Origin: a virus
Lineage: Duplodnaviria; Caudoviricetes
Length of the DNA: 64,000 nt
Reading direction: 5' to 3' (one strand)
Virus record (IMG/VR): IMGVR_UViG_3300025679_000005
In this document: piece after piece, positions 31,832 to 57,300 of the stretch
Numbering within the stretch: position 1 is the first letter of the stretch
How the letters are laid out: every line of letters begins with the position of its first letter
The notes under the pieces: model-generated
What the model was told of the DNA's origin: nothing
The model's database searches: none
Seen by the model: the letters and a program-made list of their open reading frames with translations, nothing else
Position numbers and translations under genes: made by a program

Positions 31832-32563
31832 TTGTGTCCGCACCATTGTATGTGGACACAAGCGAAAAAAGAGGCTCGGGGAAAAAGGATCGCTCAATAC
31901 AAGGCTGAAGGGAAGTGTGCGTGTGGGGGTGTGCCTAAACCGACTTATGCTACCTGCGACAAGTGCCTAGCAAAAGCCAAAAGAGTTCGTGACAGATTAG
32001 CGGCTCAAGCCGTCCCTGGAAAGGTGTGCTGGTGTGGTAGGCTCATTGATCAGGGAACTTCTAGTACTTGCGCGACTTGTCGAAGTATCGGCCGCAAAGC
32101 CGATAAGATTAGGTATGCCAAGTCTTTAGAGCGTCATGCCAAGGAAGGGATTTGCGTCAAACGCTGTGATAACCTGGCAATGCCTGATCGGACAGAATGC
32201 GAGGAGTGCTGGTGGAAGGTAATGGCACAGCACCATCTTCTGTCGGCCTCAAGGGCGACAGACCTTCAGAGCCTGTTGAAATCTCAGGAGGGCCGCTGTG
32301 CCCTAACAGGGTTTCCTTTGGAGCCCCCATTCATAGAGTTGGATCACATCGTGCCCTTGGGTCAAGGAGGGAGCACGGAGCTGGAAAACATGCAGCTAAT
32401 GTTACCCATAGTGAATCGAATAAAAGCGCATTTGCGTCAAGACGAGCTGTTTGCTTTTTGCCGATTGGTGGTAGCTCACAACGAGGGCAAAGTGAGTGAA
32501 GAGGCTGCTCTCAGAGGGGCCGCTAAACAACCTAATGTAGGTTGTAAGACAGGTCGAAAATGA
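31832..32563 (+). CDS. HNH endonuclease with Cys-rich N-terminus (pair 2, gene A)
   Basis: CALTG...ELDHIVPLGQGGSTELENMQL...VNRIK. Confidence 0.85.
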   Translation: MCPHHCMWTQAKKEARGKRIAQYKAEGKCACGGVPKPTYATCDKCLAKAKRVRDRLAAQAVPGKVCWCGRLIDQGTSSTCATCRSIGRKADKIRYAKSLERHAKEGICVKRCDNLAMPDRTECEECWWKVMAQHHLLSASRATDLQSLLKSQEGRCALTGFPLEPPFIELDHIVPLGQGGSTELENMQLMLPIVNRIKAHLRQDELFAFCRLVVAHNEGKVSEEAALRGAAKQPNVGCKTGRK

Positions 32564-33045
32564 GATGCGATCGATGCCCTAACGAGGCCGCCCCTGAACG
32601 CTCTATGTGCATACTCTGCCTAGCGAGGACTAACGAGAGAGTGAAGGAAAGGTACAGGCTGAATCGAGAGGCCAGAGCCGCTAACCCTGATGCTGAACAT
32701 CCCTGTGCGAGATGCTTCAAACAGATGGCCGTACAGGGTCGGATTGAGTGTCTTGATTGTTGGTGGAAAGCAACTGCCAACAGGTACTTCCAATCAGTCA
32801 AGTTTGCGCCTGGCCTACGAGAAATATGGGAATCTCAAGACTGTCGCTGTGCCCTTACTGGAGTGTCAATTGAGCCACCGAACATGGAACTGGATCACAT
32901 CGTTGCCCTAGCCATTGGTGGCTCCAACACCCTCGATAATATGCAGTGGGTGCTGCCTGTGATCAACTCGATGAAGCACACCCTCATGACAGACGAGTTC
33001 GTATCGCTGTGTGCTGTCATCTTGAAGCACAGCCAGAAGTGTTAG
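32560..33045 (+). CDS. HNH endonuclease with Cys-rich N-terminus (pair 2, gene B)
   Basis: CALTG...ELDHIVALAIGGSNTLDNMQWVLPVINSMK. Confidence 0.85.
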   Translation: MRCDRCPNEAAPERSMCILCLARTNERVKERYRLNREARAANPDAEHPCARCFKQMAVQGRIECLDCWWKATANRYFQSVKFAPGLREIWESQDCRCALTGVSIEPPNMELDHIVALAIGGSNTLDNMQWVLPVINSMKHTLMTDEFVSLCAVILKHSQKC

Positions 33046-33958: not shown

Positions 33959-36900
33959 CCTCAGAGGCTATTGGCTTCTGAGGTGAATTGAAACGTCTGC
34001 GTAGGTGCTCGTGGCGAGCGTGACCGATTCCGCCTCAGAGGCTATTGGCTTCTGAGGTGAATTGAAACGGGTTGTTCGCAAAACACAGCTAGACCGGCTC
34101 CGCCCCTCAGAGGCTATTGGCTTCTGAGGTGAATTGAAACAAGGAAGTTGAGCGGGACGCGGCCGATACCATGAAGCCTCAGAGGCTATTGGCTTCTGAG
34201 GTGAATTGAAACGTGTCAATCGCATCCAATTGCAGTTGGGCCTTGCTCCCTCAGAGGCTATTGGCTTCTGAGGTGAATTGAAACCGGCTGGATATCGGCC
34301 AATGCCTCGATGTCTCCAATCCTCAGAGGCTATTGGCTTCTGAGGTGAATTGAAACCAGAGCGGGGACACTGTCGCCTCGATTGCTACGGGGCCTCAGAG
34401 GCTATTGGCTTCTGAGGTGAATTGAAACGCCAGCACTACCGATCCAACCGCTTTGACGGTTAGGGCCCTCAGAGGCTATTGGCTTCTGAGGTGAATTGAA
34501 ACTACTGGGTGCGCGATCTTGAGCGCCTCCTAATCCAGCCTCAGAGGCTATTGGCTTCTGAGGTGAATTGAAACCTGGACGGCTATCAGCTCGCTCAAGC
34601 AGACCGAGCCAACCTCAGAGGCTATTGGCTTCTGAGGTGAATTGAAACTCCATGGACACGGCAATGTGTACTTGCCAGCCGTTGCCCCTCAGAGGCTATT
34701 GGCTTCTGAGGTGAATTGAAACCAAACCTATAGCGAGATCACAGCCGCTGTCAGGGCCCCTCAGAGGCTATTGGCTTCTGAGGTGAATTGAAACATCATG
34801 ACCTCTACATCGGGGCCTACAAATCCGTTGCCCCTCAGAGGCTATTGGCTTCTGAGGTGAATTGAAACGTTAGCCGGGGCTTGATTTGGGACGCAATGTC
34901 GGAGCCTCAGAGGCTATTGGCTTCTGAGGTGAATTGAAACAGCGTGAGCTTGTCGGGATGATCTAAGGCCCAACGCCTCAGAGGCTATTGGCTTCTGAGG
35001 TGAATTGAAACGAGACGGAAAGCCGTTTAACGATTTGATCCCCGCTCAGCCTCAGAGGCTATTGGCTTCTGAGGTGAATTGAAACCTACAGTCAGGACTG
35101 ACGTATAGGCGGGCTACCTCGACCTCAGAGGCTATTGGCTTCTGAGGTGAATTGAAACACCATCGAGAGGTTGACCCAGCGGTTTGGCTTGAGCCTCAGA
35201 GGCTATTGGCTTCTGAGGTGAATTGAAACAGGGTGGGGCAGGCGCACACCAGCTGCGTGCGCAGCCTCAGAGGCTATTGGCTTCTGAGGTGAATTGAAAC
35301 CAAAGCCCAAGAAAGCCAAGAGGAAGTAGTGGATTAGCCTCAGAGGCTATTGGCTTCTGAGGTGAATTGAAACGTCTGCAGCTCCTCGATTTTCTCTGAT
35401 GCGATCGATCCTCAGAGGCTATTGGCTTCTGAGGTGAATTGAAACAGGCGGGGAATGCCAAGTTGATCGCGCGGATCCAACCCCCTCAGAGGCTATTGGC
35501 TTCTGAGGTGAATTGAAACCATGGTGGGTTGCTTCGCCGGCCGTATGCTGGGGAGCCTCAGAGGCTATTGGCTTCTGAGGTGAATTGAAACGGGGCGTCA
35601 ACAGGGGACGGAACGAGAGTGAACGATTCCTCAGAGGCTATTGGCTTCTGAGGTGAATTGAAACTTGGTAACGTCGGTCGGCAGCTAGGCCGAACACACG
35701 GAGCCTCAGAGGCTATTGGCTTCTGAGGTGAATTGAAACTTGGCCTTTGAGGTCTTGGCCCTGTGCCTATCTTTGCCTCAGAGGCTATTGGCTTCTGAGG
35801 TGAATTGAAACAGCTACTATTTCCCGCTCTACATCCCAGCGGGCTCGACAGCCTCAGAGGCTATTGGCTTCTGAGGTGAATTGAAACTGGGGGATGCGTT
35901 TGGTCTTGGGCTTGCCCTTGGCATCCTCAGAGGCTATTGGCTTCTGAGGTGAATTGAAACCAAGAAGCGTTTGAACTTGATCGGATCCGCACTGTGCCTC
36001 AGAGGCTATTGGCTTCTGAGGTGAATTGAAACACTTACAACACGTTGCCGGAGACCTGGGAGAGCACCCTCAGAGGCTATTGGCTTCTGAGGTGAATTGA
36101 AACGCGGGGTTTGCGGGGGGCATACCCTCAGCGGCTGACCTCAGAGGCTATTGGCTTCTGAGGTGAATTGAAACCAAGAGCGTCGGGTCATGAATCTGCT
36201 CAAGAAGACATCCTCAGAGGCTATTGGCTTCTGAGGTGAATTGAAACGGCCAGCTTCGGAGCCGCTCTTGGATGTCCTCCGACCAAGCCTCAGAGGCTAT
36301 TGGCTTCTGAGGTGAATTGAAACGCTACGAGGATCCAGGCTAGCTGGCGAATGAACCACCTCAGAGGCTATTGGCTTCTGAGGTGAATTGAAACTAGGGC
36401 AGCCCCTGAGGGGACGGAGCATCCCGTGAGGCCTCAGAGGCTATTGGCTTCTGAGGTGAATTGAAACGCGAACTGCTTGGCCAAGGGAGCGACAGCCTGA
36501 GCGACCCTCAGAGGCTATTGGCTTCTGAGGTGAATTGAAACGAGCTGCAACTGAGCTGCCTGGGATGGCCCAGTAGAGCCTCAGAGGCTATTGGCTTCTG
36601 AGGTGAATTGAAACGACCAACGACCCTCGCCGAAGTGTCGGGACTTCCCGGCCTCAGAGGCTATTGGCTTCTGAGGTGAATTGAAACAGTCCTTGGCGTT
36701 GCCATTCGAGGCAGCCATCGACCCCTCAGAGGCTATTGGCTTCTGAGGTGAATTGAAACATGTAATATAATACGGTATGGAACCTACACACTTAACCTCA
36801 GAGGCTATTTGGCTTCTGATGTGAATTGAAACAAAGACCTCGACACTGGTGGTCGTCGTCGACCCTCAGAGGTCTCTGATCTCTGAGGTGCGTTGAAACG

Positions 36901-39599
36901 ATCGAAAGCGTGAGGTGCTATCAGAGGGTCTATGATCTCTGATCTCTGAGGTGGATTGAAACACACGGATTCGGACCTCATGCTCCGTGTTGACTTCCCT
37001 CAGGGTCATTGATCTCTGAGGTGAATTGAAACCTCCGAATGCTCACGCCGGCAGAGCGTCGTCATGGGGAGCCTCAGAGGTCTCTGATCTCTGAGGTGAA
37101 TTGAAACGAGACGATCCAGGTCGTGGTCGCCACGTGCGGACAAGCCCTCAGAGGTCTCTGATCTCTGAGGTGAATTGAAACGCTCACCTAGTGACCGAGG
37201 AAAAGAAGGTCGATGGCCTCAGAGGTCTCTGATCTCTGAGGTGAATTGAAACGATTCTGCCGCTCCCCCTAAGCGCTCATGTCGAGCGCCTCAGAAGGCT
37301 CTGATCTCTGAGGTGAGTTGAAACGATTCCCGTGTGCCCCGCTACGTCCAATCACGGACGCACCTCAGAGGTCTATGATCTCTGAGGTGAATTGAAACTG
37401 GTAAGAGCCGGTGGCGTATACCTCGAAGTCCGCACTCCTCTGATCTCTGAGGTGAATTGAAACAGGCAGGGGTCACAGAGCTTGCGACCGACCTTGACCT
37501 CAGAGGTCTATGATCTCTGAGGTGAATTGAAACACTTGCTTCGTGGTCATGCCAGGTCGGGGGACACTCAACCTCAGAGGTCTAGGATCTATGATCTCTG
37601 AGGTGAATTGAAACGAATGGGCACGTTGGAATGCACTAAGATGGTTGGCGGCCTCAGAGGCCTATGATCTCTGAAGGTGTATTGAAACAAGGCACTGCGA
37701 GTCTTTGACGCTTCCGCGAAGGCTGTCTCAGAGGTCTATGATCTCTGAGGTGAATTGAAACCTCACGAGCAACAAGAGGCCACGGGCGCAGCCCCGGCCT
37801 CTTTGGTCACTGATCCCGGAGGTGAGTTGAAACTTCAGGAGAACTCAGAGGCTATTGGCTTCTGAGTTGAGTTGAAATTCCTGCTGAATCGTGATGCCTG
37901 TAGCCTAAGTGAGTTGAAACAGCCGTAGCGAATAGCCATGTGAGTAGAGAGGCTACCTGAGGTCAATGATCTCAGAGTGAGTTGAAACGTCGTGATGGAG
38001 CGTGTGCACTCGACGGTCAGAGCCATCCTCTGAGGTCTTTAATCCCCGGAGGTGAATTGAAACGCCAGCGCGACCGTTACGAACGATGCCCGGAGGTCCC
38101 TCTGGGGTCTTTGATCCCGGAGGTGAGTTGAAACACAGACACTCTTGGGCTTTAACATCGTTCCTCAGAGGTCTATGATCTCTGAGGTGAATTGAAACAC
38201 TTCGGAGGCGGCCTTTGGAGGTCACATGTCTACTACCCTCAGAGGTCTATGATCTCTGAGGTGAGTTGAAACAGGGCGGCGCTTCGACAGATGCTCCAAG
38301 ACAACGCACCTCAGAGGTCGTTGATCTCAGAGGTGAATTGAAACGGAGTCTGCTGAAGCAGATCGTCAATAGCGATCTTGGTGCCTCAGAGGTCTCTGAT
38401 CTCTGAGGTGAGTTGAAACACGTGGAGCGGCAGGCCAGCTAGGCTTCTCCGGATCCCTCAGAGGTCTCTGATCCCTGAGGTGAATTGAAACCAGGTACGG
38501 CCAACGTACCCCTTGGCGTGGGACTTCTGAGGTCTCTGATCTTAGAAGTGAATTGAAACATGAAGCCCAGCTCGTCCAGCGCCTTGATGTGCGGGGCCTC
38601 AGAGGTTCTGAGGTGAGTTGAAACGACTCCATCAGTGGACGCTGCGTCCACGCCGGATCCTCTGTGGTGTCATTGATCTCAGAGGTGGATTGAAACCAGG
38701 CCGCTCAGCGGTGTACCTATAGAGGTCTGAGGTCGGGGATCTCGTGAATTGAAACCTGAGCCAACCTCGTTGGACTGCTGGGTATCGAAGGCTTCTGAGA
38801 TCAATGATCTCAGAAGTGAGTTGAAACGCGAGCTGCTCTCACCGTGTCTGACAACCCCGCGGATCCTCTGGCTCACAGAGGTGAGTTGAAACATCAGAAC
38901 TGGCCTGCGAAGGTCGAAGGTCGTCTAGTCCTCTGGGGTCATTGATCCTGGAGGTGAGTTGAAACGTCTGGTCGGAACCCTATAGTGATCGTCAGAATTG
39001 GCCTCCAGGGTCTTTGGATCCTGGAGGTGAGTTGAAACATCGACGACGGCCCGGGAATGCTACCAGATGGCAACCTCAGAGGTCTCTGATCTCTGAGGTG
39101 AATTGAAACGCCGTGGTGGGCGCGTAGTCGCCAGCCTTGATCAAACCTCAGTGGTCTCTGATCTCTGAGGTGGATTGAAACGTTGGGGTGCGATGGGCTG
39201 CATCGGTCCTCAGAGGTCTATGATCTCTGAGGTGAATTGAAACCTCTGAGCTGAGCCGTACGGGTGCAAACCGATCCACTCCTCAGAGGTCTATGATCTC
39301 TGAGGTGAATTGAAACGCGGGTCAGGAATCCGTAGAACAAGCGCTCCAGGAGCGGCCTCAGAGGTCTCTGAGGTGAATTGAAACAACGGTCTGGTGTGGG
39401 ACTGCAAACCGCGGGTGGCTGCCTCAGAGGTCTCTGATCTCTGAGGTGAATTGAAACGTGAGCGAACACAAAGTGCTCTCAACCGCGACCGAACACCTCA
39501 GAGGTCTAGGATCTCTGAGGTGAATTGAAACAGAGGTAGTCGGCAGAGAAGATAGAATTCGGCTTCAGGGCCGACTTTCTTCCTGAAGTGTATTGAAAT
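33959..39599 (+). CRISPR. Type I-C-like CRISPR array, about 80 repeats: 40 near-identical (33959-36832) then about 40 degenerate (36864-39599)
   Basis: 36-nt repeat CCTCAGAGGCTATTGGCTTCTGAGGTGAATTGAAAC (hairpin plus 11-nt tail); distal consensus CCTCAGAGGTCT(C/A)TGATCTCTGAGGTGA(A/G)TTGAAAC; spacers mostly 34-40 nt. Confidence 0.98.
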
Positions 39600-39710: not shown

Positions 39711-40352
39711 ATGGTCGAAATCAAAAGCAAAATGTACAACATCGAGATGCGAGGCCGCTTGGCCTGCTTCACAGCCGTCGAATCGAAGATCGAGCGGGTC
39801 TCGTACCCCATCCCCACCCCCTCAGCAGTAGAGGGCGCCTTGAGTGGCGTCATGGGGAAGCACGAGATCCAATGGCACTTGTCCCAGTGCCGCGTGCTCT
39901 CCAAGATCAGGCATACGCCCGTTCGTCGCAATGAGCTGAAGGAGTTCGGCAACAATCCTGTCTACATTGAGAACAACCGCGCCCAACGCACCACCCTGTA
40001 CCTGAAGGACGTGCACTACGTGTTCTCGGTCTTCATGACGATTCGGCCCGATGCCTTCACCAGGGACATCGTCAAGTACGAGTCCATGTTCGAACGTCGC
40101 ATGGAAGGCGGGCAGTTCGAATACTACCCGTATTTCGGCTTACGGGAACTCGCGGTCAGTCGTTACGCTTTGGTGGACGACCTGAGCCAGTTCACGCCTA
40201 TCCCGTTCTCACAGAACTTCGGTCGGATGTTCTACGGCCACCAGTATCGTGATCGTCGAGTCGTTTCCAGTAAGTTCTGGGAAGCCAAAATCGTCAGAGG
40301 CATCGTCAACTACCCATCGCGAGATGAGATCTTCGGAGAAATTGAAACATGA
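39711..40352 (+). CDS. cas5: Type I-C Cas5 (Cas5d)
   Basis: ACFT...KIERVSYPIPTPSA, RRNE, LKDVHY, MFERR..GGQ...PYFGLRE. Confidence 0.92.
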   Translation: MVEIKSKMYNIEMRGRLACFTAVESKIERVSYPIPTPSAVEGALSGVMGKHEIQWHLSQCRVLSKIRHTPVRRNELKEFGNNPVYIENNRAQRTTLYLKDVHYVFSVFMTIRPDAFTRDIVKYESMFERRMEGGQFEYYPYFGLRELAVSRYALVDDLSQFTPIPFSQNFGRMFYGHQYRDRRVVSSKFWEAKIVRGIVNYPSRDEIFGEIET

Positions 40353-42154
40353 GCCAGTTACTCAGCAGCCTATACAGTTACGCGGTGGCCCACTCTCTAG
40401 AGGCTCCGTCAGAAGAGCGCGACTTCCCGCTCAAGTTGGTCTTGAACGAGAGCGGCTTCGTTGGCCTGGAGATCCTGAACCAGGCACTATGCGTTCCACC
40501 ACAAGTCATGATGAGAGGTAACAAGACGAAGCCAAATTTGGGCTACGACAATATCAGCTACGTTTTGGGCATTGGCCTCGTAGAACGAGCAGAGCGCTTC
40601 CCAGCGTTCTGGAAGCACACAATCGAGCAGTTGACCCGGGCCGGGGCACCGGAAGGAGTCCTCACCGCTGTCAAAGCTTTCCAAGACACGCGGGAATCGT
40701 GGAGGGAAGCGGCCCTGGCCTGCACCAGAGCATTTACCGAGGCGGACCCGAAGTTGGTGTTCGAGGGCGGGGAGTGGGTTGTCATTGAAGTTCAAGGCCA
40801 CGGCTATCTGCACAATACTCCAGGTCTTAGGCAAGACATCGAAAATATTGATGTCTTCGAGACAACGGGGATTTGTGCCGTATCGGGAGTTGCCTGTAAC
40901 CCCACACGATTGCATCCCGCCATCAAAGGGGTGCTAAAGGATGCAGTACCACTGGTCTCTTACAACGGCACTGCATACGAATTTGAAGGTCTCGAACAAG
41001 GGGCTAACTTTCCCACCAGTGCGACCGTAGCCCAAGGGTACACGAACGCCCTGAACGACTTGCTGTTCTATGTCCCCGATCGCCCGGGGCGTCGCAAGAA
41101 CGGGATCAATCTTCCCAGTGGTGCCGTTCTGGTGCTGTGGTCCAACGACCCAGAGGTGGATGTACAGCCTCTCATTGATGTCCTGTACGCCTCCAACAAC
41201 AAGGAGGACCGCGAGGTCGTGTCCAGGACTTGGGCCGCTTTTGAAGCCCTCAAGGAGTCTGAGGCAGAGGTCCACGTCTTGCTACTAGTCGGATACAGGG
41301 GTCGGATCTCCATCAATCGTTGGACGACTGTCTCCCTCACGGAGCTGCTGGTCAACCTGCGTAGCTATCGTCAAGCCTTCGCCAAGTTCTCGGAGTTCCC
41401 CAGCATGTACGAGCTGCTGGAGAACCTCAGCTCGGAAAAGCCTCAGATGGAGAATCCGAAGAAATACCTGCCGAAGCAAATTCTGTCGGAGACCCTTAAG
41501 AGTTCCCTCTACGAGGCCGTACTGTTCGGGGAACCCATTCCAAAGTCTGTCTACCAGTACGCTGTCAACCGCATGGTGCGGAGCAACCCCAACTCATACC
41601 CCTCCGAGCACGGATGGTTCCGCCAAATGGCGATCCTAAATGCTTGGATCAGCTTGAATCAACAACAAAAGGACACAATGACTGAGCCCACAAATTCTGA
41701 CGGCCCCCAGGGCCCGCAACGTTGCAACTACATTCCGAAGGACGCCTCCCCTGCTTTTCATGAGGGGCGCTTCCTGGCATGCGCCGAAGAGTATCAGTAC
41801 ATCTATGCCGGCCAAAAACCTGGCACCACAGCAAAAGTCGGCACGCCATTTGGCAGCAAGCTGAGTGAATTCTCGACAAATACTACCCGTTCAAAAGTGG
41901 CCATCCAAAGTGTACTCGTGATTTTCCAGAGAGGGTGCTCTGGACCCAGCGCCAATGTGGTCAGGGAAGAGCTGGATGATGTGACGTTTCACCTGGCTCT
42001 GCATCAGACCCCTGGCCGGGCCACCCCCAAACAACGCCAGGACATCTGTCAAGGCTACTTCAGCGAAAAACTCTACCTTAAGGATCGCAAGGGGTACCGT
42101 GCCCCGCTTCCCCCCACAACTGATGGAGACGAGAACACCTCGTCATCCGTTTGA
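40349..42154 (+). CDS. cas8c: Type I-C Cas8c (Csd1), short variant
   Basis: LHPAIKGV...LVSYN...QGANFP...Y.NALNDLL; GRISI; C-terminal F..GRFLA..E..Q; position between cas5 and cas7. Confidence 0.82.
   Translation: MSQLLSSLYSYAVAHSLEAPSEERDFPLKLVLNESGFVGLEILNQALCVPPQVMMRGNKTKPNLGYDNISYVLGIGLVERAERFPAFWKHTIEQLTRAGAPEGVLTAVKAFQDTRESWREAALACTRAFTEADPKLVFEGGEWVVIEVQGHGYLHNTPGLRQDIENIDVFETTGICAVSGVACNPTRLHPAIKGVLKDAVPLVSYNGTAYEFEGLEQGANFPTSATVAQGYTNALNDLLFYVPDRPGRRKNGINLPSGAVLVLWSNDPEVDVQPLIDVLYASNNKEDREVVSRTWAAFEALKESEAEVHVLLLVGYRGRISINRWTTVSLTELLVNLRSYRQAFAKFSEFPSMYELLENLSSEKPQMENPKKYLPKQILSETLKSSLYEAVLFGEPIPKSVYQYAVNRMVRSNPNSYPSEHGWFRQMAILNAWISLNQQQKDTMTEPTNSDGPQGPQRCNYIPKDASPAFHEGRFLACAEEYQYIYAGQKPGTTAKVGTPFGSKLSEFSTNTTRSKVAIQSVLVIFQRGCSGPSANVVREELDDVTFHLALHQTPGRATPKQRQDICQGYFSEKLYLKDRKGYRAPLPPTTDGDENTSSSV
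41678..42154 (+). CDS. Probable internally translated Cas11 (small subunit) within cas8c
   Basis: In-frame ATG with upstream AAGGA just before the AFHEGRFLA domain. Confidence 0.55.
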   Translation: MTEPTNSDGPQGPQRCNYIPKDASPAFHEGRFLACAEEYQYIYAGQKPGTTAKVGTPFGSKLSEFSTNTTRSKVAIQSVLVIFQRGCSGPSANVVREELDDVTFHLALHQTPGRATPKQRQDICQGYFSEKLYLKDRKGYRAPLPPTTDGDENTSSSV

Positions 42155-42183
42155 TCGACTCTCAAAACACAAATAGGAACAAA

Positions 42184-43131
42184 ATGGCACCGAAAAAAGC
42201 TACTGCTGCTGCAATTCTCGAAACCCCGTCCAACACAGCTGTCGAGAAATCCCACTCCGACACCGTGGTCGATCGTCGCATCGACATCTTCATCGTGTGG
42301 GACATCACCGCAGGGTCTCCTCAAGGGGATCCTGCTCAACTCAACAACCGTCCTCGTGAGGACATCGACACCGGCAACGGCATGTTCACGGATGCTGGCT
42401 GGAAACGCCACATCCGTGACTACATCATGATGGCCTACGAGGGCAAGGAAGGTCTGGACATCCACATCCGTCAGAAAGCGATCTTGTCAGAGGGCGTTCT
42501 CGATGCCCAAACCAAGCTCGGGATCAAGCCCGCGGATGCCCAGAAAGACGCAAATCAAACTCGTGTCCGCGACGCCATGTGCAAAAGCTACTTCGATGTC
42601 CGAGCATTCGGCGAAGTTGTAGCCCACAGCACCGCCACCAACTCCGGCAAGATCACTGGCCCTGTCCAGTTCACGCACTTCTGGAGCCAAGATCCCTTGG
42701 ACACCATGGAGATCAAGGGGACCCGCGTGGCGGTCGCCAACCAAGAGCGCTCGGACAGCATGGCCGGGTTCAACCAGGACTTCAGCATCAAGTACGTGGT
42801 CCCGTACGCCCTGTTCCACGGAAACGGCTTCGTGTCCCCCTTCTGGGCCAAGAAGACGGGATTCACCTGGGGCGACTACGAAGTGCTGATCGAAGCCATG
42901 AAGAACCTGTTCGAGAATCGTCGAACATCTTCGAGCGGGCTTCGGACTACCCGAAAGATCATCGCTTTCGAGCACAGCACCCACTTGGGCTGCGCTCCGG
43001 CGGCCGATCTCTTCGATCTGGTCAAGATCGTCAAGAAGAACCCCGACAAGCCGGCTCGTGCCTACTCGGATTACGAGATCACGATCGACGAGGCGAATCT
43101 GCCTGCCGGTGTAACCGTCAAGGTGTACTGA
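42184..43131 (+). CDS. cas7: Type I-C Cas7 (Csd2)
   Basis: PQGDP...N.PR.D, TDAGWKRHIRDY, YFDVRAFG, GPVQF, VVPYALF, AKKTGFT. Confidence 0.93.
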   Translation: MAPKKATAAAILETPSNTAVEKSHSDTVVDRRIDIFIVWDITAGSPQGDPAQLNNRPREDIDTGNGMFTDAGWKRHIRDYIMMAYEGKEGLDIHIRQKAILSEGVLDAQTKLGIKPADAQKDANQTRVRDAMCKSYFDVRAFGEVVAHSTATNSGKITGPVQFTHFWSQDPLDTMEIKGTRVAVANQERSDSMAGFNQDFSIKYVVPYALFHGNGFVSPFWAKKTGFTWGDYEVLIEAMKNLFENRRTSSSGLRTTRKIIAFEHSTHLGCAPAADLFDLVKIVKKNPDKPARAYSDYEITIDEANLPAGVTVKVY

Positions 43132-43147: not shown

Positions 43148-43190
43148 GCAGGGGGAGGGTATGACACCTTCCCCCTGCTTCCTTCTATTT
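43148..43190 (+). terminator. Intrinsic terminator-like hairpin after cas7
   Basis: GCAGGGGGAGGGT-ATGAC-ACCTTCCCCCTGC followed by a pyrimidine-rich tract. Confidence 0.6.
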
Positions 43191-43209: not shown

Positions 43210-45588
43210 ATGACTCGCTGTCTACCGTCTCGACACCAGCCCTCCGTGGGTGCGGTGCCTTTTTGTCTGCATACTCGATACTATCAGCCAGATGTCTTCA
43301 AGGAGCTGACAGAGCTAGTGCCCTCAGAGCCACAGGTGGCATTGCTGTTGCCTACAGGCAGCGGTAAGACAACGCTGATTCTGTCTTTCATCGCCTGGGT
43401 GTTCGAGCAGCCAAAGCCACCTTTCTCCGAAGTCTACGTCATCGCCCCTCAGAAGACCGTCCGCGATGGCTTCAAAGGCAATAAGGGGGAGAACCGTCAA
43501 TTCCAAGTCAATCCAGGAGAGGCCTGCTATGAGCTTGTGTCCGCAGAGGATCTGGATTCGAGGACTTCTCTGGACGAAACGGGGGATCTCGATACCAAGC
43601 TTTTAGAAGTGCCCAAACCTGGAACAAAAGTGTGGTTCGCAGAGACTCATGCCAAATTCGCACTTGAGAAGCTGCTCTGCAACTTGCAGAACCACTGCTG
43701 TACTGCTGACTTCCACGGCAAGCTATTGGTGGTGGATGAGGGGCACCACGCCAAGCTGGGCAACAACATCCGAGCCTTCATCGACTATTGGGTGGCCAAT
43801 GGTGGGCACGTACTGTACGCCACTGCCACTCCGGGAGACGGTATCCCTGAGACCGCCAAACTGATCCAACGCACTCTCACTGAGCTAATGGCGCCGCCAT
43901 ACGACCTCCCGCCGTGTGCCCCCACAAGGATCCTATCTAATTTCATCGATACGGGGTTGGCGGAGGACTCCGAGCAAGACGCTGATGGGACTCATTGTGC
44001 TCCTATCGGGACTGAGGCCGAGTTGCGCAATGTCTTCGAGGACATGGCCACTCGCTGGAATGACGCTGGTCGTCCCAAGACTATTGTCCGGATCAAGCCT
44101 AAGCAAGACACTCAGCACAACATCAAAATGCTTCTTATGGCCAAAAAAGCCTTTGAGGACGTAGGTGCGAGAGCTTTTGCCGTCAGAGCTGATGTCAACT
44201 TGAAAACAGGATCCGAAATCAAACGCATTGACGGCTTGATTTCCTCCGAGGACCTCTCAGAAAAGCTGGCTAAGGAGCGCCGTCGGTCGTATTCAGAATC
44301 CGAGTGCGACGTGATCATCACGCTCAACACAATGATTGAAGGTGCCGATTGGCCCCTTTGCAGTCATGTCTACTTGTGGGGCGTGCCCGGCAACTGTCAG
44401 ACCACTGTTCAGGTACTGGGGCGAGCCACTCGTCTAAGGACCGGTATCTCAGACTACCCGCAGCAATGGTGCGAGACCACTCAGATCGTGTTCTTTGTGG
44501 GTGGTGTCTCTGATCTTCGTAATACCCACGGCACTACCATGCTTTTGGTAGGGTGCTCACTAGCTAACTACACTCTAGGTGCTCAATGGTCTACGTTCCG
44601 AGAGCATTTGAAGCTGGTCAAGGAACACCCACAGATCTTGGAACCAGCTCGTGAAGAGGCAACGGCGGTCCCCGCGGAACGTGAGAGAGAGATCAGACTG
44701 GGTATTTCGGGGCTGTCAAAAACCATTGAAAAGTTCCAAAATACCAAGGAAAGGGTGGAGAACTCCGAAGTTCACGAGAGGCGCAAACGGATAATCGAGA
44801 AGCATCTGTCCACTCTTCCAGACGGACCCGAGCGCCGATTTGGCATAAGCTTTGCCCTAGGGGAGTATCCTGGGTATCAAGAGAAATACCGCAAAGCATT
44901 GAGGGGACGCCTTCAAACGGAGAGCTTCAGCGAGGCCCATAAGGCTGTCCTGGATGAACTCCTGGAGCACTTCCTGAACTCAACTGAGGTGCTCCCTAGA
45001 GCGGGGTCCCTAATGGACCTGGAGGATATGGGACTACTCCAGTTGACTGCCCCTGTTCTTGAGGGATTGAAGGACAAGATGCTTAAGGAGTGTCCTCCTA
45101 GGTTGTACCGGAGTAAAGTCATTAACAACACTCAGAGCTTCGTTATCTCGAATCCACACCTGTCCATTTCAGAATTGCTGGATCAACCGGACCCCGCAAG
45201 CCCTGACGGGTACACCTTCAGGGCATACGACGAGGCCATTCGAGCTGGCTCACGTGGCCTGGAGAGGCACGATGACGGCCTAGGCGGTATGGTCTGTGAG
45301 CGAAGCTCGTGGTCCAAGGAATGGGTGACATCAGCTCATCTGGACCAGCTAAAGGGTGGGACTAGTCAAAAGAGGTTCGCTTCAGAGTTTAAGAAACACC
45401 CTTTGGGGTTCTTTTTCGGGCCTCCTATCACCAATCTCCTGAAGGGTCTACCCTTGGATGTCTGTGCCCGTCTGACTGTCGGCGAAGCGGTCCGCATTGG
45501 TCGTTCAGAATGGACTAAGGAGCAATACGCCTCCTTTAAGGGCCGTCTTCAGCACATGACTGTGCAGGAGGCGCTAGATGGCGTCTAA
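43210..45588 (+). CDS. SF2 helicase with no HD nuclease domain
   Basis: LPTGSGKT, VVDEGHH, TATP, MIEGADWP, QVLGRATR; Walker A is only about 45 aa from the start. Confidence 0.85.
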   Translation: MTRCLPSRHQPSVGAVPFCLHTRYYQPDVFKELTELVPSEPQVALLLPTGSGKTTLILSFIAWVFEQPKPPFSEVYVIAPQKTVRDGFKGNKGENRQFQVNPGEACYELVSAEDLDSRTSLDETGDLDTKLLEVPKPGTKVWFAETHAKFALEKLLCNLQNHCCTADFHGKLLVVDEGHHAKLGNNIRAFIDYWVANGGHVLYATATPGDGIPETAKLIQRTLTELMAPPYDLPPCAPTRILSNFIDTGLAEDSEQDADGTHCAPIGTEAELRNVFEDMATRWNDAGRPKTIVRIKPKQDTQHNIKMLLMAKKAFEDVGARAFAVRADVNLKTGSEIKRIDGLISSEDLSEKLAKERRRSYSESECDVIITLNTMIEGADWPLCSHVYLWGVPGNCQTTVQVLGRATRLRTGISDYPQQWCETTQIVFFVGGVSDLRNTHGTTMLLVGCSLANYTLGAQWSTFREHLKLVKEHPQILEPAREEATAVPAEREREIRLGISGLSKTIEKFQNTKERVENSEVHERRKRIIEKHLSTLPDGPERRFGISFALGEYPGYQEKYRKALRGRLQTESFSEAHKAVLDELLEHFLNSTEVLPRAGSLMDLEDMGLLQLTAPVLEGLKDKMLKECPPRLYRSKVINNTQSFVISNPHLSISELLDQPDPASPDGYTFRAYDEAIRAGSRGLERHDDGLGGMVCERSSWSKEWVTSAHLDQLKGGTSQKRFASEFKKHPLGFFFGPPITNLLKGLPLDVCARLTVGEAVRIGRSEWTKEQYASFKGRLQHMTVQEALDGV

Positions 45589-46360
45589 CAATAGGGCTTC
45601 CAAGACAACTGCAAAGAGGCAGGATGACATCTCGGAGCACGACAACCCTGAGAAGCAGAAGTCCAGACAACGGAATTTGGATTTCTTGATCAAGTACGGT
45701 CAGGCTATCTGGGAAGACCACCCAGGCGGTATCCTCAAGCCCCATGTCATTGAATTGATCGGCAAATCCGGTCATCTGTCCTACGAAACCTTCAAGGGAC
45801 ATCTAGCGAATCCTGACCTCGATTTCATTGGTGTTGAGTGGGCTCGCGAGGTTTTCTATCATGCGTGGGACAAACTCGACACATCAGGCCAACCATACAA
45901 ATTTCCATTGGAGCGCGGTGAGATCAGTAAGTACCTTGTGTCCAATTGGAGCAAGAAACCGGCCAGCGTGATCATATGGGACTCTACAAATTCTATGGGC
46001 AACCGTAGATGGTGGTCCAGTCAGGGACGCCGGCTCCAAGAAGCTCTTAAGGGGCACTCCAAAGCTTTTGGGGAAGTCGCTCTCCTACTGACAATGAGCT
46101 TGAGAGGCCGCCTAGACACTCATCAAAAGCACGTTGAAAACCTAAAGATATTTCGGCAGAAGCTGATGGACATTTTCAGAGTGCCCGAAGGGGCCATCAT
46201 CAAAGACCACACAGTAGTAGAGGCCTCCAACCCACTGGGCGAATTCGAGAGTCTCGAATTCTACAAGGCCAAAAGTACCTCAATGGTGACTTTCAGAGCT
46301 ATCTACAGCGCAGACGGGCACCACCGTATGCGAGGCCTACCTTCAACGGAGATCAAATGA
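45578..46360 (+). CDS. Hypothetical protein, possibly a degenerate SAM-methyltransferase fold
   Basis: VIELIGKSG, FIGVE, VIIWDS; overlaps the helicase stop. Confidence 0.5.
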   Translation: MASNNRASKTTAKRQDDISEHDNPEKQKSRQRNLDFLIKYGQAIWEDHPGGILKPHVIELIGKSGHLSYETFKGHLANPDLDFIGVEWAREVFYHAWDKLDTSGQPYKFPLERGEISKYLVSNWSKKPASVIIWDSTNSMGNRRWWSSQGRRLQEALKGHSKAFGEVALLLTMSLRGRLDTHQKHVENLKIFRQKLMDIFRVPEGAIIKDHTVVEASNPLGEFESLEFYKAKSTSMVTFRAIYSADGHHRMRGLPSTEIK

Positions 46361-46776
46361 GCACAATCCAAACAAAAATGGCTCGTGAAGCCATCAAAGC
46401 CTGCGTCTACAGTCAGGCCACCACCTCAGAGACCATTCGAACTCTCATCGAGGTGATCCGTCACGAGTATCCTGGTAAGACCGACACCGAGATCTTGACG
46501 ATTCTCGCTGAGGAGACCGACTCTGCTCCCATCGTCACGGCTTCGATCAAAGTCGAGAAACACCTGAAGAAGTCAGGGGGCTCCACTCCCGAGGCGGTCC
46601 TTGCTTTCGCCAAGGCCAAGACGACCTTCAGCTCGAAAGAGGCCCAGAACTACTTCAAGGTGACTGCCCAGAAGTTGGCGGGCTCCTTGGCCGTCCTGAC
46701 CAAACGAGGGGTGATCCGTAAAGCTCCCAAGATGAGCGAAGATGAAACTTCACTCTACAACCTAACGCACCCTTAA
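46357..46776 (+). CDS. Putative winged-helix DNA-binding protein
   Basis: STPEAVLAFAK..TTFSSKEAQ..FKV..QKLAGSLAVLTKRG. Confidence 0.6.
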   Translation: MSTIQTKMAREAIKACVYSQATTSETIRTLIEVIRHEYPGKTDTEILTILAEETDSAPIVTASIKVEKHLKKSGGSTPEAVLAFAKAKTTFSSKEAQNYFKVTAQKLAGSLAVLTKRGVIRKAPKMSEDETSLYNLTHP

Positions 46777-46844
46777 CTCCCCAGCTACCTAGGCCGTAAC
46801 AACACCCACATCCGGAACACTTCCCTCCGGTGTATAAGGAACCA

Positions 46845-47249
46845 ATGCCCACTCTCAATAGCTCGATTCTCAAGTCCGAGGCCGCTCGCATCAAGCGGTC
46901 CATCATCAACCTCCAACCCTTGTTTCCCGGCAAGAACGAAATCGAGATCCTATCGAACGTACTCGCTGAGATCAAGATGAGCCCCATCGATGCGTCCCTT
47001 TCCAAGATCAGCCGTGCCGTCAAAGGCTGGGCAGGTAAGAACGGTGAGTCCACCCCCGAGGACGTTCTCGCCTACGCCAAGGAAGAGAAGACCTTCAGCT
47101 CGAAGGAAGCTCAAGATCGCTTCAAGGTGAGTCCCCAGAAGATGGCCGGCTCATTGGCCGTTCTAACTCGCCAAGGACTTCTACGCAAGCTAGACGATGC
47201 TGCTGAGGACGGGACATCCGCCTGGCGCTACGGCAAGCGCAAGAACTGA
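46845..47249 (+). CDS. Tandem paralog of 46357-46776
   Basis: STPEDVLAYAK..KTFSSKEAQ..FKV..QKMAGSLAVLTRQG; GGTGTA 10 nt upstream. Confidence 0.65.
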   Translation: MPTLNSSILKSEAARIKRSIINLQPLFPGKNEIEILSNVLAEIKMSPIDASLSKISRAVKGWAGKNGESTPEDVLAYAKEEKTFSSKEAQDRFKVSPQKMAGSLAVLTRQGLLRKLDDAAEDGTSAWRYGKRKN

Positions 47250-47267
47250 CCTCACAGACAGGCACCA

Positions 47268-47320
47268 CGGAAAAAGAAAAGGCCGGATCCTCAAAAGGGA
47301 TCCGGCCTTTTCTTTTTCCG
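47268..47320. terminator. Perfect 23-bp inverted repeat; bidirectional terminator-like
   Basis: CGGAAAAAGAAAAGGCCGGATCC...GGATCCGGCCTTTTCTTTTTCCG. Confidence 0.8.
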
Positions 47321-47336
47321 GTGTAATTGTAGACCA

Positions 47337-47600
47337 ATGAAGATCACGCACCTCATAGCGGACGCATTCGCTCTAGTAGAAGCCGGAGGTTTCATGGTCG
47401 GCACCATTCGAGTGAACCCCTCAGATTTGGCTTTGATTCAAGGCTCGGACCAGTTCTCACAGGAAAATGGCCGCCTCTGGACGGCTGCTGTGATCGCTGA
47501 CCAAACCGTCGAAGCAGGTACGTTCGTGACCGGCGAGATGAACCCGAAAACTCTGAAAGTGGAGAAGGAATCCACCCATTCTCTGTGTCTTCCAAATTGA
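47337..47600 (+). CDS. Small hypothetical protein
   Basis: GGTGTA 11 nt upstream. Confidence 0.6.
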   Translation: MKITHLIADAFALVEAGGFMVGTIRVNPSDLALIQGSDQFSQENGRLWTAAVIADQTVEAGTFVTGEMNPKTLKVEKESTHSLCLPN

Positions 47601-51726: not shown

Positions 51727-53148
51727 TCAGGGAGTCGTATCTTCGGCGTTTGAGGCTGTGCCAGTACTCTTTGCAGAGATTGCCCTGGTAGTAAGCCTAC
51801 GGCTAGAAGCTGCTAGCTCGGTAGTAGACCTTCCTGAGGAACTGTCCCCGGCCCGAAGGGCTAGGTATCGCTGACTCAGGAGGGTTTTCACTTCGGAGGG
51901 ATGATCATAGATCCCAATCTCTTTGTCCTCGGAACGTCCGAGCAGATTGCGACCTCCTACCACATCCGCATGAGAAATCCTGCCGCACCCACGGCATTGA
52001 AACTTGATCCCACTTCTGTTGGATCGTGAAACGTAGCCACAGGATGGGCACATCTGAGAAGTGTATGCCGGATTCACAACAATGACCGGAGCCTTGGTGG
52101 CTAACGACTTGTGCAGAGCCTTATAAGCGAATCGCTTTTGCCCCTTACAACCCCTGAGATCCAAGTCCTCGATGACGAACGCATGTCCTGGGTAGTCTCT
52201 AACGAGCGAGTTGGCAACGAACCCTGTGCTTGTTTTGATGAGACCGCTGAGGTGCTCTTCCAAGCGATCTAGGCGAGGAGAATTGATCCTCAATCCCTGA
52301 CGTTGCCTATTGGCTCTGAGGGTTTTGACCTTGGCATAAAGGGTATCGAACTTGGGCTTCAGATCAGCTCCGTAGATTCGACCGGCCGACGTAGCCGCGA
52401 TCACGTTGAGGCCGACATCCACTCCTACGCGAGGTGCTGACAGGTCAAGCTTAGGCTCCTCAATTAGCTTCTTCTCAAGGACTTCGACTCGCCATCGGCC
52501 CCGGCGGTCTTTGCGGATCATACAGCCATTGACGATCTCGTCAGGGGATTTGACGTGAGGGTTGGCGACGATCGGGACTTGGATCCTACGACCCTTCTTG
52601 AGATTGGAGAAGCCCAGCCACCAGGCACTGATTTTGGTATCATCGATCTTGCGGATGGCACTAGTATGCACCGAAAGGCGTATTCCAATTCGATCAGAGA
52701 TCGTGGGGGTCTTACCTACTAGGTCCTTGTCAAGAAGGAACGACCAGTACTGATCGAGAACTTCCTGAGAGATCAGGTCAGTGGCATGGTCGTAACTGTA
52801 TTTTCCGATAGTGAGAAGGGCGATTTTGGTCGATTCGGTGATCAAGCCCTCCTTAGCCAATCCCTTGATGTGTCGCTTGAGCTTCCTGACGTAGGTGGTT
52901 GTAACCCAAGCTGAAACAATCTCGATGGCATGCTGCTGGCAAGCCATTACAATGTTAGTGGAAAGAACCCTCTCCCTGGGAAAGAACCTGAGAAGTTCTC
53001 CTCTAGGAATCCCCATCCTCATGGACGAGATCATAGCTTCGACGCAAGCCTGGAGATACAGAAGGTATTCTACGTGAAGGGCTTCGAGCGCACGGATCTT
53101 CCCTGGGTTTGCTTGGGGGTGAAAGAAAAGGACTCGTGAGCGTTTCAC
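51727..53148 (-). CDS. tnpB: Divergent, longer TnpB/Cas12f-like RuvC nuclease
   Basis: GVDVG, IEDL, NPAYTSQMCPSCG, CRGCG..HADVVGGRNL. Confidence 0.85.
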   Translation of the reverse strand: MKRSRVLFFHPQANPGKIRALEALHVEYLLYLQACVEAMISSMRMGIPRGELLRFFPRERVLSTNIVMACQQHAIEIVSAWVTTTYVRKLKRHIKGLAKEGLITESTKIALLTIGKYSYDHATDLISQEVLDQYWSFLLDKDLVGKTPTISDRIGIRLSVHTSAIRKIDDTKISAWWLGFSNLKKGRRIQVPIVANPHVKSPDEIVNGCMIRKDRRGRWRVEVLEKKLIEEPKLDLSAPRVGVDVGLNVIAATSAGRIYGADLKPKFDTLYAKVKTLRANRQRQGLRINSPRLDRLEEHLSGLIKTSTGFVANSLVRDYPGHAFVIEDLDLRGCKGQKRFAYKALHKSLATKAPVIVVNPAYTSQMCPSCGYVSRSNRSGIKFQCRGCGRISHADVVGGRNLLGRSEDKEIGIYDHPSEVKTLLSQRYLALRAGDSSSGRSTTELAASSRRLTTRAISAKSTGTASNAEDTTP

Positions 53149-54307: not shown

Positions 54308-57300
54308 TCAGTCATCATCATTGATCAGAGCCCACAGCTGCCGACCAATGCTCATCCCCGACAGATGTTGGCTCCCCACACCCGCCGAGGCCAGCATGCT
54401 CTCATTGTCGAGCCCGTCAGTCGATATCGAGATCTCGACTTTACGCATGAGCAACTCGTACATCTGCTCTTGTAGGGTGTCCTTGAAGACAGCGAAGTGG
54501 ATGCGGGTGTCCTTCTTCTGACCAATACGGTCTACTCGACCGACTGCCTGCCGGAACATGATCGGGCTACACATCGGGTTCTCCATCCACAATTCTGTGG
54601 AGAAGTGGACCAACGAATTCAAACCCGTGCTCACGGAGGCGGGGTTGACAATCAATACCCGGGAATTCTTCTTGACTACGTGCTGCTCTATCCACGTTTG
54701 GCGCTTACTCGTGGGGACGCGGTCAGCATAAAGGATCGGGGCCTTCACCCCTAGGCGCTCCTCAATGAGGCGGGCAATCCTAGGAAGCAACGTCGTGTGC
54801 CAAGCAAAGACCATGGCATTGCGACCCTCGGCCAGTTCCGCCTTGAGGGTGTCGAGCATCCACTGCTCCTTGGCAGAGACCTCGGAAGCTGAGAACTGCT
54901 TACCAGTCGCCACGATCCCAGCGCCCACGGACTCGGGATACCGGATCTCGTAGGTCCCGTCATCGTTATTGCCAGTGTCCGCCGTTGATCGATCCAAGTA
55001 GCTGGGCAGCTCTGACAGCTGGCCGAACAGCTTCCCCGACAGGTCCGGATCGAAGCGATCCTTCTTGATCTGATCCCTCAATGAGGCCAGAAGGGATTTG
55101 TAGCTGCCCAGTAGCTCGGAATCAGCTTCCACCACATGCTTCGTGACAGTGCAGGGCGGGATGTCAATGGCTAGGTCTGCCTTGTGCAAGGTCACAGACA
55201 CGGGCAGGAGGTGCCGGAACAAGAACAGGGGGAGAATGCCAGGGGCATCTCCGGCTGTGCGTTCGCTTCGCTGCACACGATCGGACATGGCCCCGAAGGC
55301 TACGACCTCCCCAGACTCCTTATCCTTGTCAGAAATGATTCGCTTCCGGTAGCCGTAGCGGTCAATGAACCGTTGGGCATCTTCCCTGGCGAACTCATGC
55401 CGGAAGTCCGGAGACAGCGCCCACATGTTCGTGTACAAGGACTTCGCGTAGCCGTTCATGACAGAGCCGGTCATGAACAGGGTGGGGATACCAAGGCCGG
55501 TTAGAGAATGGTAGGCTTGCGATTGAGCTGAGTCCGCATTAGCTGCCTCATGGCTTTCGTCTAAGCATATGAAGTCAAACAGATTCGGAGAGTATTTGGC
55601 GATGTGCTTCGCCAACGCCACTCGACGGGGTTCGGGTACCGCCTGGAACAAAGCCTCTCCGCATTCTGGGGTCAAGTAGATCTTACCACAAGCAATAAGC
55701 CCCGTAAGGATGGCCTCAGCAAGGTCTAGACTGTTGGCCTCCTTGGCATCTAGGGTCAAAACCCCGTCAGTCCACTTGAGCATCCCCAAATGGGTGTTGT
55801 GACCGTAGGACCTGGCCGCCTTGTAGTACATGTCCCAGCTCTGCCAATTGCTGGTCTCAAATAGTCCGGTCAGCTCCTTTTGGAGTTCCGTTCCCTCTTC
55901 AAGCAGGTAAACCAGGTTCTTCGCCATGTCCTTGATGTAGTATTCCTGGTGTTGGGACAGGATCCGAACATAGCGAGCAATTCGAGCAGGGTCGTAGGCG
56001 GCCATCAACAGCTTGGCGAACAGCTTGGGCAGCTCACCTTCGTTGGTCGAGTTGAGCATCATCTTGGCGAACACGAGATCGGTCATGTGCTCGACGTTGG
56101 CTGGCTGGAACACCCACTCGGGGCGTTCGTCTTTCGGAACCAGTGCGTTCTTGTCGAGGATCCTGTTCAAGTGCACCGTCCTCAGAATGCCCCGAAGGCG
56201 ATGACTCTCAGGGAGGTGCTCTAGAAGCTGCAAGCCGAACGAGTAGGCGGCTAGGCCCAGATCATCCTTGATCGAAATGTCTCTGTTCTCGCAACGAAGG
56301 CGCTTCTTGACGGCATCTTCCTTGGGCAGCTCACCGCCACACTTCGGGCAGCTCTTGGTAACGGCTTCCCAGCCATGGCCTAGCTTGGCCGTTTCCCGGG
56401 ACAGAATCGCCACCAGAAAGCGTTCCGCTGGAATGTCAGCCAATGCCTCGATGTCTCCAATGTCCTTCAAGACCCGCACCTCAGCGTCAGGAAACGTGGC
56501 CGAGGTCTCATTGGTCCAAGAGGTCAGAAGATGAGGCGGGCAAAGGACAAGCATTCTCTTGGCGATTGTCCTAGCGACCGTTAGTGCCAGGCAGCTCTTA
56601 CCACTGCCGATTTCGCCCAAAAGCTGGGCAGATCGATACTTTCTGTCCTTGGCCTTGTTCCCACCCAAAAGCATCACCAACGCCTTGGCTGAGTGCTCCT
56701 GAGCTTTGAAGAGTTTTCTCGCCGTTGGGGCCAAGGTCACCGAGTCCGCATCCCGCTTGGGATCGTACATGACAGGGCACTGTTGCTGCATAACCCCCAT
56801 GAGGCTAGGCCCGTAGTGCTTGAGCAAGTCCTCAATGGTCATTTTCTCGACATCGAGGACTTTCGACTCCCCACCGGATCCCAGGGTCGTGTACTTTTTG
56901 GTACTCAAGTCCAAGATCGTCGTAATCAGCTTCGGCTGCTGAACCTGAACAACCGAGGTCACATCCCCGTCCTTGTTTTTCTTCTCCTCGACGGTGACGA
57001 ACTCCCGATCGAACACTCCCTTGACCAAGAGGTCGGGGAGGCCTTCGGTTTCTGAAGATACCCGGCGACCATTGAACAGCCCTGAGGCGATCCCCGCGGC
57101 AATGTGGGCGGGCCTAGGGGGCGTAGCCAACTTGTACGTCCGGAACATCAGCTCTTCTACGGGAAGCTCAGGGATGATGTGAGGCACCGGGACGTAAGAG
57201 CCCAGGCGATTGCTTTGGGTCCAAGGACGAACCTTCTTCAATAGCCCAATGCGGTCGAAGGCCCGCATGCCCCAATCGGTCGTGTAGACGTTGCTCTGCG

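What the first reader, a model, noticed from the sequence alone, without database searches (positions are those of the whole stretch)
43210..46776. Nuclease-less SF2 helicase cassette in the position next to cas7
Seen: a 792-aa helicase with motifs I, II (DEGH), III, V and VI, no HD domain, and about 300 aa of unknown C-terminus. It is coupled by overlaps to a possible methyltransferase-fold gene and a winged-helix gene. Its motif VI (QVLGRATR) is not Cas3-like. Against linkage: a terminator-like hairpin separates it from cas7. Inference: it may be a recruited effector replacing Cas3, giving RNA-guided unwinding, roadblocking or modification rather than degradation. This is the best candidate for an undescribed system here.
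Basis: partly seen in the sequence, partly recalled or inferred. Interest (0 to 1): 0.68.

Follow-up and report, generated by a model that had tools for sequence, protein, structure and literature searches.

The report
Phage Cascade with helicase-methyltransferase partner
A giant phage-like genome carries a CRISPR targeting complex whose usual DNA-shredding enzyme is replaced by a motor protein, a methyltransferase-shaped protein and a small DNA-binding protein; this arrangement was noted in 2020 but never tested, and it probably blocks rival phages without cutting them.

Summary
The helicase lies after cas5c-cas8c-cas7c and a ~78-repeat array on a ~465-kb phage-like contig. All ten context-checked members of its clade follow cas7 and precede the same ~240-aa gene. 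That gene folds as a class I SAM-methyltransferase (pLDDT 78; Z about 12).

The same gene set is in phage SR-VP_PHAGE_CIR_63_141, the 'type I-C variant with a helicase instead of Cas3' of Al-Shayeb 2020. Its helicase is 28% identical (E 5e-36); its two partner genes were left as hypothetical.

Additions here: helicase plus methyltransferase-fold gene also occur as a pair without Cas, in phages and Planctomycetes. There the helicase usually carries 3-9 C-terminal repeats; Cascade-linked copies keep 0-1. The hairpin after cas7 is conserved in orthologous operons, so it does not argue against linkage. One spacer matches a related phage's gene next to a TTC PAM.

Most likely mechanism (inferred): nuclease-free, type IV-A-like interference against competing phages. 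RNA-guided methylation is not excluded. The scan found this system before on other DNA (e1-5325525).

The parts
33959..39531 (+). CRISPR array, about 78 repeats of 36 nt ending in TTGAAAC; left half uniform, right half degenerate
34285..34320 (+). Spacer matching window 56426-56461 (30/36) behind a TTC PAM; three mismatches are synonymous, so it was probably taken from a homologous gene of a related phage
   Evidence: codon comparison read from the sequences
39711..40352 (+). cas5c (213 aa)
   Evidence: PF09704 E 1.7e-14; PADLOC Cas5c E 1.7e-35
40349..42154 (+). cas8c/csd1 (601 aa)
   Evidence: PF09709 E 7.8e-46; PADLOC Cas8c E 5.8e-43
42151..43131 (+). cas7c/csd2 (315-326 aa)
   Evidence: PF05107 E 5.6e-62; TIGR02589 above cut-off
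43148..43178 (+). Stem-loop between cas7 and helicase, conserved in structure in orthologous operons; probably sets mRNA stability or stoichiometry (inference)
   Evidence: z -4.4; L001 -5.4, L005 -5.0, L006 -5.8; weaker in L003 and L007
43210..45588 (+). SF2 helicase/translocase (XPB/HsdR/RadD-like core, residues ~20-450), then a helical domain, one degenerate copy of the family's C-terminal repeat (~635-695) and a short tail; no nuclease detected
45578..46360 (+). Class I SAM-dependent methyltransferase-fold protein (260 aa); E59, G62, G85 and D135 invariant; near-constant partner of this helicase family
46357..46776 (+). Small winged-helix-like protein, copy 1 (139 aa); C-terminal ~70 aa conserved in orthologous loci
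   Evidence: wHTH assignment weak (MarR 9z72 E 0.019)
46830..47249 (+). Small winged-helix-like protein, copy 2 (44% identical to copy 1)
   Evidence: D10; FeoC E 3.6e-4, HTH_PafC, MarR_2
47245..47340 (.). Region holding a long perfect hairpin with A/U-rich flanks, the likely end of the operon
   Evidence: z -8.6

Best explanation
A phage-borne type I-C variant for nuclease-free interference. SHOWN: cas5c-cas8c-cas7c, the helicase, a methyltransferase-fold gene and a small wHTH-like gene form one conserved cassette next to an array in many large phage-like contigs; it is the same system as the published SR-VP locus. INFERRED: Cas5c matures crRNA and Cascade binds TTC-PAM targets in competing phages. 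The SF2 motor is loaded at the R-loop in place of Cas3 and moves along the DNA without cutting, silencing transcription or replication as CasDinG does in type IV-A. The methyltransferase-fold protein came along as the motor's long-standing partner, and the wHTH is a regulator or DNA-binding adaptor. The pair was captured from a Cas-free helicase+methyltransferase module whose array of C-terminal repeats (probably DNA-binding) shrank to 0-1 copy once RNA guides took over targeting. Spacers must be acquired with host or other Cas1-Cas2.
For: Context: five close homologs (39-44% identical) and four distant ones picked from the tree before lookup (P0011, P0013, P0017, P0033) all follow cas7 and precede the same gene. 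They form a 99/97-supported branch in which 10 of 10 checked members are Cas-linked. Helicase and partner identities track those of Cas5/7/8 across loci. Arrays lie beside L003, L005, L007, L008, L122, L123 and L127. No Cas3 HD or Cas1 in the 92%-complete 618-kb L008 phage; no Cas3 hit in the window. Same gene set in SR-VP_PHAGE_CIR_63_141. All motor motifs are intact; the C-terminal alignment shows no conserved HD- or HNH-like residues. About 29 Cas-free loci, 20 with the methyltransferase-fold gene, and one fusion (P0061, E 4e-31). Repeat counts: 3-9 in most Cas-free members, 0-1 in Cas-linked ones. One spacer matches a phage-gene homolog with a TTC PAM. Nuclease-independent repression by type IV-A is established (PMC11519345).
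Against: No activity was measured and contact with Cascade is not shown. The helicase model is poor (pLDDT 56), so a nuclease of unknown fold in the C-terminus cannot be excluded. Only one spacer target was found. The methyltransferase-fold gene is kept in 12 of 13 Cas-linked loci, which plain roadblocking does not explain. The rest of the 465-kb contig could not be searched for Cas3. A few Cas-free helicases also have a single repeat, with the other repeats in neighbouring genes (L091, L097, L098).
Confidence: 0.55

Rival explanations
1. RNA-guided modification: the methyltransferase-fold protein is the real effector. Delivered by Cascade and carried by the motor, it methylates target DNA (or RNA or protein at the target) to silence it or mark it for methyl-directed restriction.
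For: Confident class I methyltransferase fold. Glycine loop, acidic end of strand 2 and Asp at the end of strand 4 are conserved across about 30 homologs. Translational coupling, one natural fusion, and retention in 12 of 13 Cas-linked loci. The motor's nearest solved relatives include HsdR, which works with a methyltransferase.
Against: No DPPY/NPPY or PC motif of known DNA methyltransferases. Top fold hits are generic small-molecule, RNA and protein methyltransferases, with none standing out. The L127 locus has helicase and Cascade without this gene within 10 kb.
Confidence: 0.2
2. The motor unwinds or moves the target for a nuclease supplied in trans (host Cas3 HD, a phage HNH protein or a co-resident Cas12), so the end result is still degradation.
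For: The published SR-VP phages also carry Cas12j. The window has HNH and TnpB-like genes.
Against: No nuclease gene is conserved next to the cassette in any of the loci fetched here.
Confidence: 0.12
3. The system regulates host or own genes, or directs recombination or replication at chosen sites, rather than fighting other phages.
For: No nuclease; wHTH genes in the cassette; most spacers have no known target.
Against: The one informative spacer matches a homolog of a gene in this genome, with mismatches in the PAM-proximal seed, as expected for inter-phage targeting.
Confidence: 0.08
4. The cassette is an independent module that merely sits next to a Cas3-less Cascade.
For: The module occurs without Cas in about 29 loci, including a complete 133-kb phage with no cas7. 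A hairpin follows cas7.
Against: Linkage persists at about 30% identity, across three gene orders and changing flanks; the hairpin is itself conserved.
Confidence: 0.05

Closest known systems
Huge-phage type I-C variant 'with a helicase instead of Cas3' (Al-Shayeb et al. 2020, PMC7162821, Ext. Data Fig. 9; SR-VP_PHAGE_CIR_63_141/139). From memory, later called type I-X in Al-Shayeb 2022 Cell; that paper is not held, so this is unverified.
   Same: Order cas5(213 aa)-cas8c-cas7-helicase-~230-aa gene, plus array and small wHTH-like gene; helicases homologous (28% over 475 aa, E 5e-36; profile E 2.9e-48); no cas1, cas2, cas3 or cas6 in the cassette; genome about 465 kb.
   Different: Distant lineage. 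Array is upstream here and two wHTH copies follow the methyltransferase-fold gene; in SR-VP one copy lies beyond the array. The paper's text did not annotate the methyltransferase-fold or wHTH genes, nor the Cas-free source module. Cas12j could not be checked on this contig.
Type IV-A CRISPR-Cas with CasDinG (PMC11519345, PMC10450177)
   Same: Mobile-element class 1 effector without adaptation genes or nuclease, paired with an SF2 helicase; closest functional analogue.
   Different: Cascade here is type I-C, not Csf. The helicase is XPB/HsdR-like, not DinG (no DinG family hit for this protein), and brings methyltransferase-fold and wHTH partners.
Canonical type I-C (Cas3-Cas5c-Cas8c-Cas7c-Cas4-Cas1-Cas2)
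   Same: Three-gene Cascade without Cas6; TTC PAM at the one informative target.
   Different: No Cas3 HD nuclease or Cas3-type helicase; no adaptation genes nearby.
Type I/III/ISP restriction-modification enzymes
   Same: SF2 ResIII/HsdR-like motor genetically paired with a methyltransferase fold.
   Different: No restriction nuclease domain, no specificity subunit and no DNA amino-methyltransferase motif.

Membership tests
Huge-phage type I-C variant (Al-Shayeb 2020) | cas5 (I-C type), cas8c and cas7 present, no cas6 | tested here: met
   the cas block holds only these three genes
Huge-phage type I-C variant (Al-Shayeb 2020) | Non-Cas3 helicase adjacent to Cascade and homologous to the published one | tested here: met
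   P0044 equals published locus _169 in length, start, motif V and end; 28% identity, E 5e-36
Huge-phage type I-C variant (Al-Shayeb 2020) | No cas1, cas2 or cas3 in the genome | tested here: inconclusive
   No Cas3 tblastn hit in the 64-kb window; no Cas3 HD or Cas1 in related 618-kb phage L008; the window's whole contig is not searchable
Huge-phage type I-C variant (Al-Shayeb 2020) | Carried by a huge phage | tested here: inconclusive
   464-466-kb metagenome contig with tail-spike-like, exonuclease and methylase PHROG hits; capsid and terminase not seen in the window; relatives L008 and L125 are IMG/VR viral contigs
Huge-phage type I-C variant (Al-Shayeb 2020) | Same accessory genes (_168 and _165) as the published locus | tested here: inconclusive
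   Same positions, sizes and visible motifs by eye; not scored by HMM because the locus could not be fetched
Canonical type I-C | Cas3 with HD nuclease and Cas3-type helicase | tested here: not met
   No Cas3 family hit; E 0.26 against a canonical Cas3
Type IV-A | Csf1-Csf3 subunits and DinG helicase | tested here: not met
   Cas proteins score as I-C; the helicase has no DinG hit in PADLOC
Type IV-A (works-like) | Nuclease-free, helicase-dependent silencing | not testable with these tools
   Needs interference and expression assays
Class I SAM-dependent methyltransferases | Rossmann-like methyltransferase fold | tested here: met
   pLDDT 78, pTM 0.80; Z 12.6, rmsd 3.6, 179 aligned to 5wcj; top 50 all methyltransferase-fold; Atlas TM about 0.6
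DNA adenine/cytosine methyltransferases | DPPY/NPPY/SPPY or PC catalytic motif | tested here: not met
   Strand 4 ends in N-x-D or W-D in the 30-row alignment; no methylase family hit
Class I SAM-dependent methyltransferases | SAM binding and methyl transfer | not testable with these tools
   Conserved E59, G62, E87 (acidic in most homologs) and D135 are consistent with binding only

The most novel reading that the evidence does not exclude
A natural RNA-guided methylation system: Cascade has replaced the protein repeats that once aimed a helicase-methyltransferase module, and now directs the motor and an active methyltransferase to mark or silence competitor DNA over a distance.
Probability: 0.2. 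Interest if true: 0.88.

Novelty: new member of a known kind. Interest (0 to 1): 0.52.

Why it matters
This variant has had one sentence and one extended-data figure since 2020. A keyword search of the main text of the 2025 CRISPR classification did not find it, and I found no functional study. It now appears as a widespread lineage (13 loci here, down to about 30% identity) with a defined gene set, a candidate PAM and a traceable origin, so it can be tested directly. It would be an independent route to nuclease-free CRISPR interference beside type IV-A. If the methyltransferase is active on targets, it would be a natural RNA-guided modifier, which to my knowledge has not been shown for any CRISPR system.

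Tried and rejected
No whole genome is held, and the window's contig is not searchable by handle. The named phage collection holds no homolog of the helicase. Spacers found no match in named phages or plasmids; one spacer found no exact match in viral contigs. Complex prediction of the helicase C-terminus with the methyltransferase-fold protein gave 'no answer' and is not used as evidence. The helicase C-terminus has no family or fold assignment, but the model is weak, so this is not evidence of a new fold. I guessed that the ~250-aa extension of the P0040 clade was a fused methyltransferase; the HMM does not hit it, so this was rejected. Loci L016-L089 are generic helicases pulled in by a loose pattern and were ignored. 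The cas locus 16 kb from L091 is a Cas3-containing I-C system and was not counted. One origin for all Cas-linked helicases was not rejected (AU p 0.43 with P0044 and L008; p 0.08 when P0040 is added), so two recruitments are suggested but not shown. Al-Shayeb 2022 and Pausch 2020 could not be retrieved; searches for 'type I-X' or later work found nothing. The atlas lead PP_RS20740 gave no functional clue. A likeness of the strand-4 motif to Trm1/TcmP is from memory and was not confirmed by any family hit.

Full report
Observation. The 792-aa ORF at 43210-45588 has a full set of SF2 motifs, Pfam ResIII and Helicase_C hits, and no HD domain or Cas3 hit. It overlaps a 260-aa gene by 11 nt, which overlaps a 139-aa gene by 4 nt. 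A second copy of the small gene follows at 46830-47249, then the strongest hairpin tested. Upstream lie cas5c, cas8c and cas7c and an array of about 78 repeats. The protein is recorded on 464-466-kb metagenome contigs, and the window has phage-type genes. A canonical Cas3 finds no tblastn hit in the window.

Linkage to Cascade. The five close homologs (39-44% identical) all lie directly after cas7 and before a ~245-aa gene; where the contig is long enough a ~70-aa gene follows. A profile search found 722 family representatives. I built a tree and looked up four distant relatives that grouped near the window's clade: P0011, P0013, P0017 and P0033. All four follow cas7 and precede the same partner gene. 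In a careful tree this branch has 99/97 support, and 10 of 10 checked members are Cas-linked. Two further loci use other gene orders: L008 (cas7-cas5-cas8c-helicase-partner-array, on a 618-kb phage without Cas3 HD or Cas1) and L127 (helicase-cas5-cas8c-array-cas7, no partner gene found). Helicase and partner identities fall in step with those of Cas5, Cas7 and Cas8. The stem-loop after cas7 recurs with different sequence in L001, L005 and L006 without U tracts, so it is a feature of the operon rather than a boundary.

The partner genes. The 260-aa protein models well (pLDDT 78, pTM 0.80) and matches class I SAM-dependent methyltransferases throughout (best Z 12.6, rmsd 3.6, 179 aligned). Residues at the usual SAM-binding positions are conserved, but no DNA-methyltransferase catalytic motif is present, so activity and substrate are open. 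The small gene is conserved in L001, L003, L005, L007 and L123; its winged-helix assignment rests on weak hits.

Origin. About 29 distinct loci from phages and mostly Planctomycete genomes hold the helicase family with no cas5, cas7 or cas8 within 8-10 kb (some loci are short). Twenty of them carry the methyltransferase-fold gene directly behind or a few kb away, and P0061 is a fusion of the two. A complete 133-kb phage has the helicase and no cas7. Most Cas-free helicases end in 3-9 copies of a ~70-aa repeat. The repeats of one member, and repeat proteins encoded next to two others, score as HNH_repeat or HA domains. Cas-linked helicases keep one degenerate copy or none. I infer that Cascade replaced a protein-based targeting array; DNA binding by the repeats is not shown. 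The nearest solved motors are XPB, HsdR and RadD, so translocation on double-stranded DNA is as plausible as unwinding. Whether capture happened once or twice is unresolved.

Targets. One spacer (34285-34320) matches 56426-56461 at 30 of 36 bases, 23 of them contiguous, directly behind TTC, the known I-C PAM. The target lies in a DUF6094 methyltransferase-helicase gene, and three mismatches are synonymous third positions. This points to a homologous gene in a related phage, with seed mismatches sparing this genome. It is a single case; other spacer searches were empty.

Comparison with what is known. Al-Shayeb et al. 2020 report that two related huge phages have a type I-C variant lacking Cas1 and Cas2 with a helicase instead of Cas3. 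Their table names SR-VP_PHAGE_CIR_63_141 and _139. The deposited annotation shows cas5-cas8c-cas7, a 908-aa helicase, a 231-aa hypothetical gene, a region that reads like an array, and a 78-aa hypothetical gene. That helicase is my hit P0044 and aligns with the window's protein at 28% over 475 aa, E 5e-36. The two hypothetical genes show, by eye, the motifs of the methyltransferase-fold and wHTH families. The finding is therefore a new member of that system. Keyword searches of the 2025 classification and of Altae-Tran 2023 did not turn it up, and I found no functional study. I had reached this reading before consulting the scan's notes, which agree.

Mechanism and verdict. Shown: gene content, linkage, fold of the partner, intact motor motifs, absence of a recognisable nuclease and identity with the published variant. 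Inferred: recruitment of the motor to the R-loop and silencing without cleavage, as in type IV-A, at about 0.55. Rivals are guide-directed methylation (0.2), a nuclease in trans (0.12), gene regulation or recombination (0.08) and mere adjacency (0.05). Novelty: new member of a known but uncharacterised kind. Interest 0.52, held up by the open mechanism, the methyltransferase partner and the traced origin, and held down by prior publication.

Noticed in passing
window 34285-34320 vs 56426-56461: Near-self spacer with TTC PAM and synonymous mismatches in a DUF6094 methyltransferase-SNF2-like helicase gene (54308-57988, minus strand).
   Followed up: partly
window 36800-39531: The right half of the array uses a second, degenerate repeat variant with several short or broken units.
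   Followed up: no
window 18932-20262 and 31832-33045: Two tandem pairs of related Cys-rich genes (repeat families D9, D12, D13 and D16); one was scanned and has an HNH hit.
   Followed up: no
window 23949-25166, 51727-53148, 62463-63677: Three TnpB/Cas12f-like genes (two confirmed by Pfam).
   Followed up: partly
L127:10001-18202: A separate helicase clade (P0040 and about a dozen relatives of ~910-1010 aa) with one repeat and an unassigned ~250-aa extension; L127 lies upstream of cas5-cas8c-array-cas7 with no methyltransferase gene. Possibly a second recruitment.
   Followed up: partly
P0061 residues 951-1149: Natural fusion of helicase, repeats and methyltransferase-fold domain.
   Followed up: partly
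L099-L120 (mostly Planctomycetota MAGs), L009, L011, L093: Cas-free helicase + repeat + methyltransferase-fold module of unknown function; in several genomes unrelated genes lie between the two, and several copies are frameshifted.
   Followed up: partly
L091:9987-13506, L097:9963-14385: Helicase followed by separate genes made of HA or HNH_repeat domains; in L091 the methyltransferase-fold gene follows them.
   Followed up: partly
L122:7155-8953: cas8c appears split into 438-aa and 159-aa genes, possibly a separate Cas11-like subunit.
   Followed up: no
L093:15838-17000: Degenerate CRISPR-like repeats about 5 kb after a Cas-free helicase-methyltransferase pair, with no cas7 in the 41-kb record.
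   Followed up: partly
L128:3458-10920: Cas3-containing type I-C locus with array on a 126-kb viral contig, 16 kb from a helicase of this family.
   Followed up: partly
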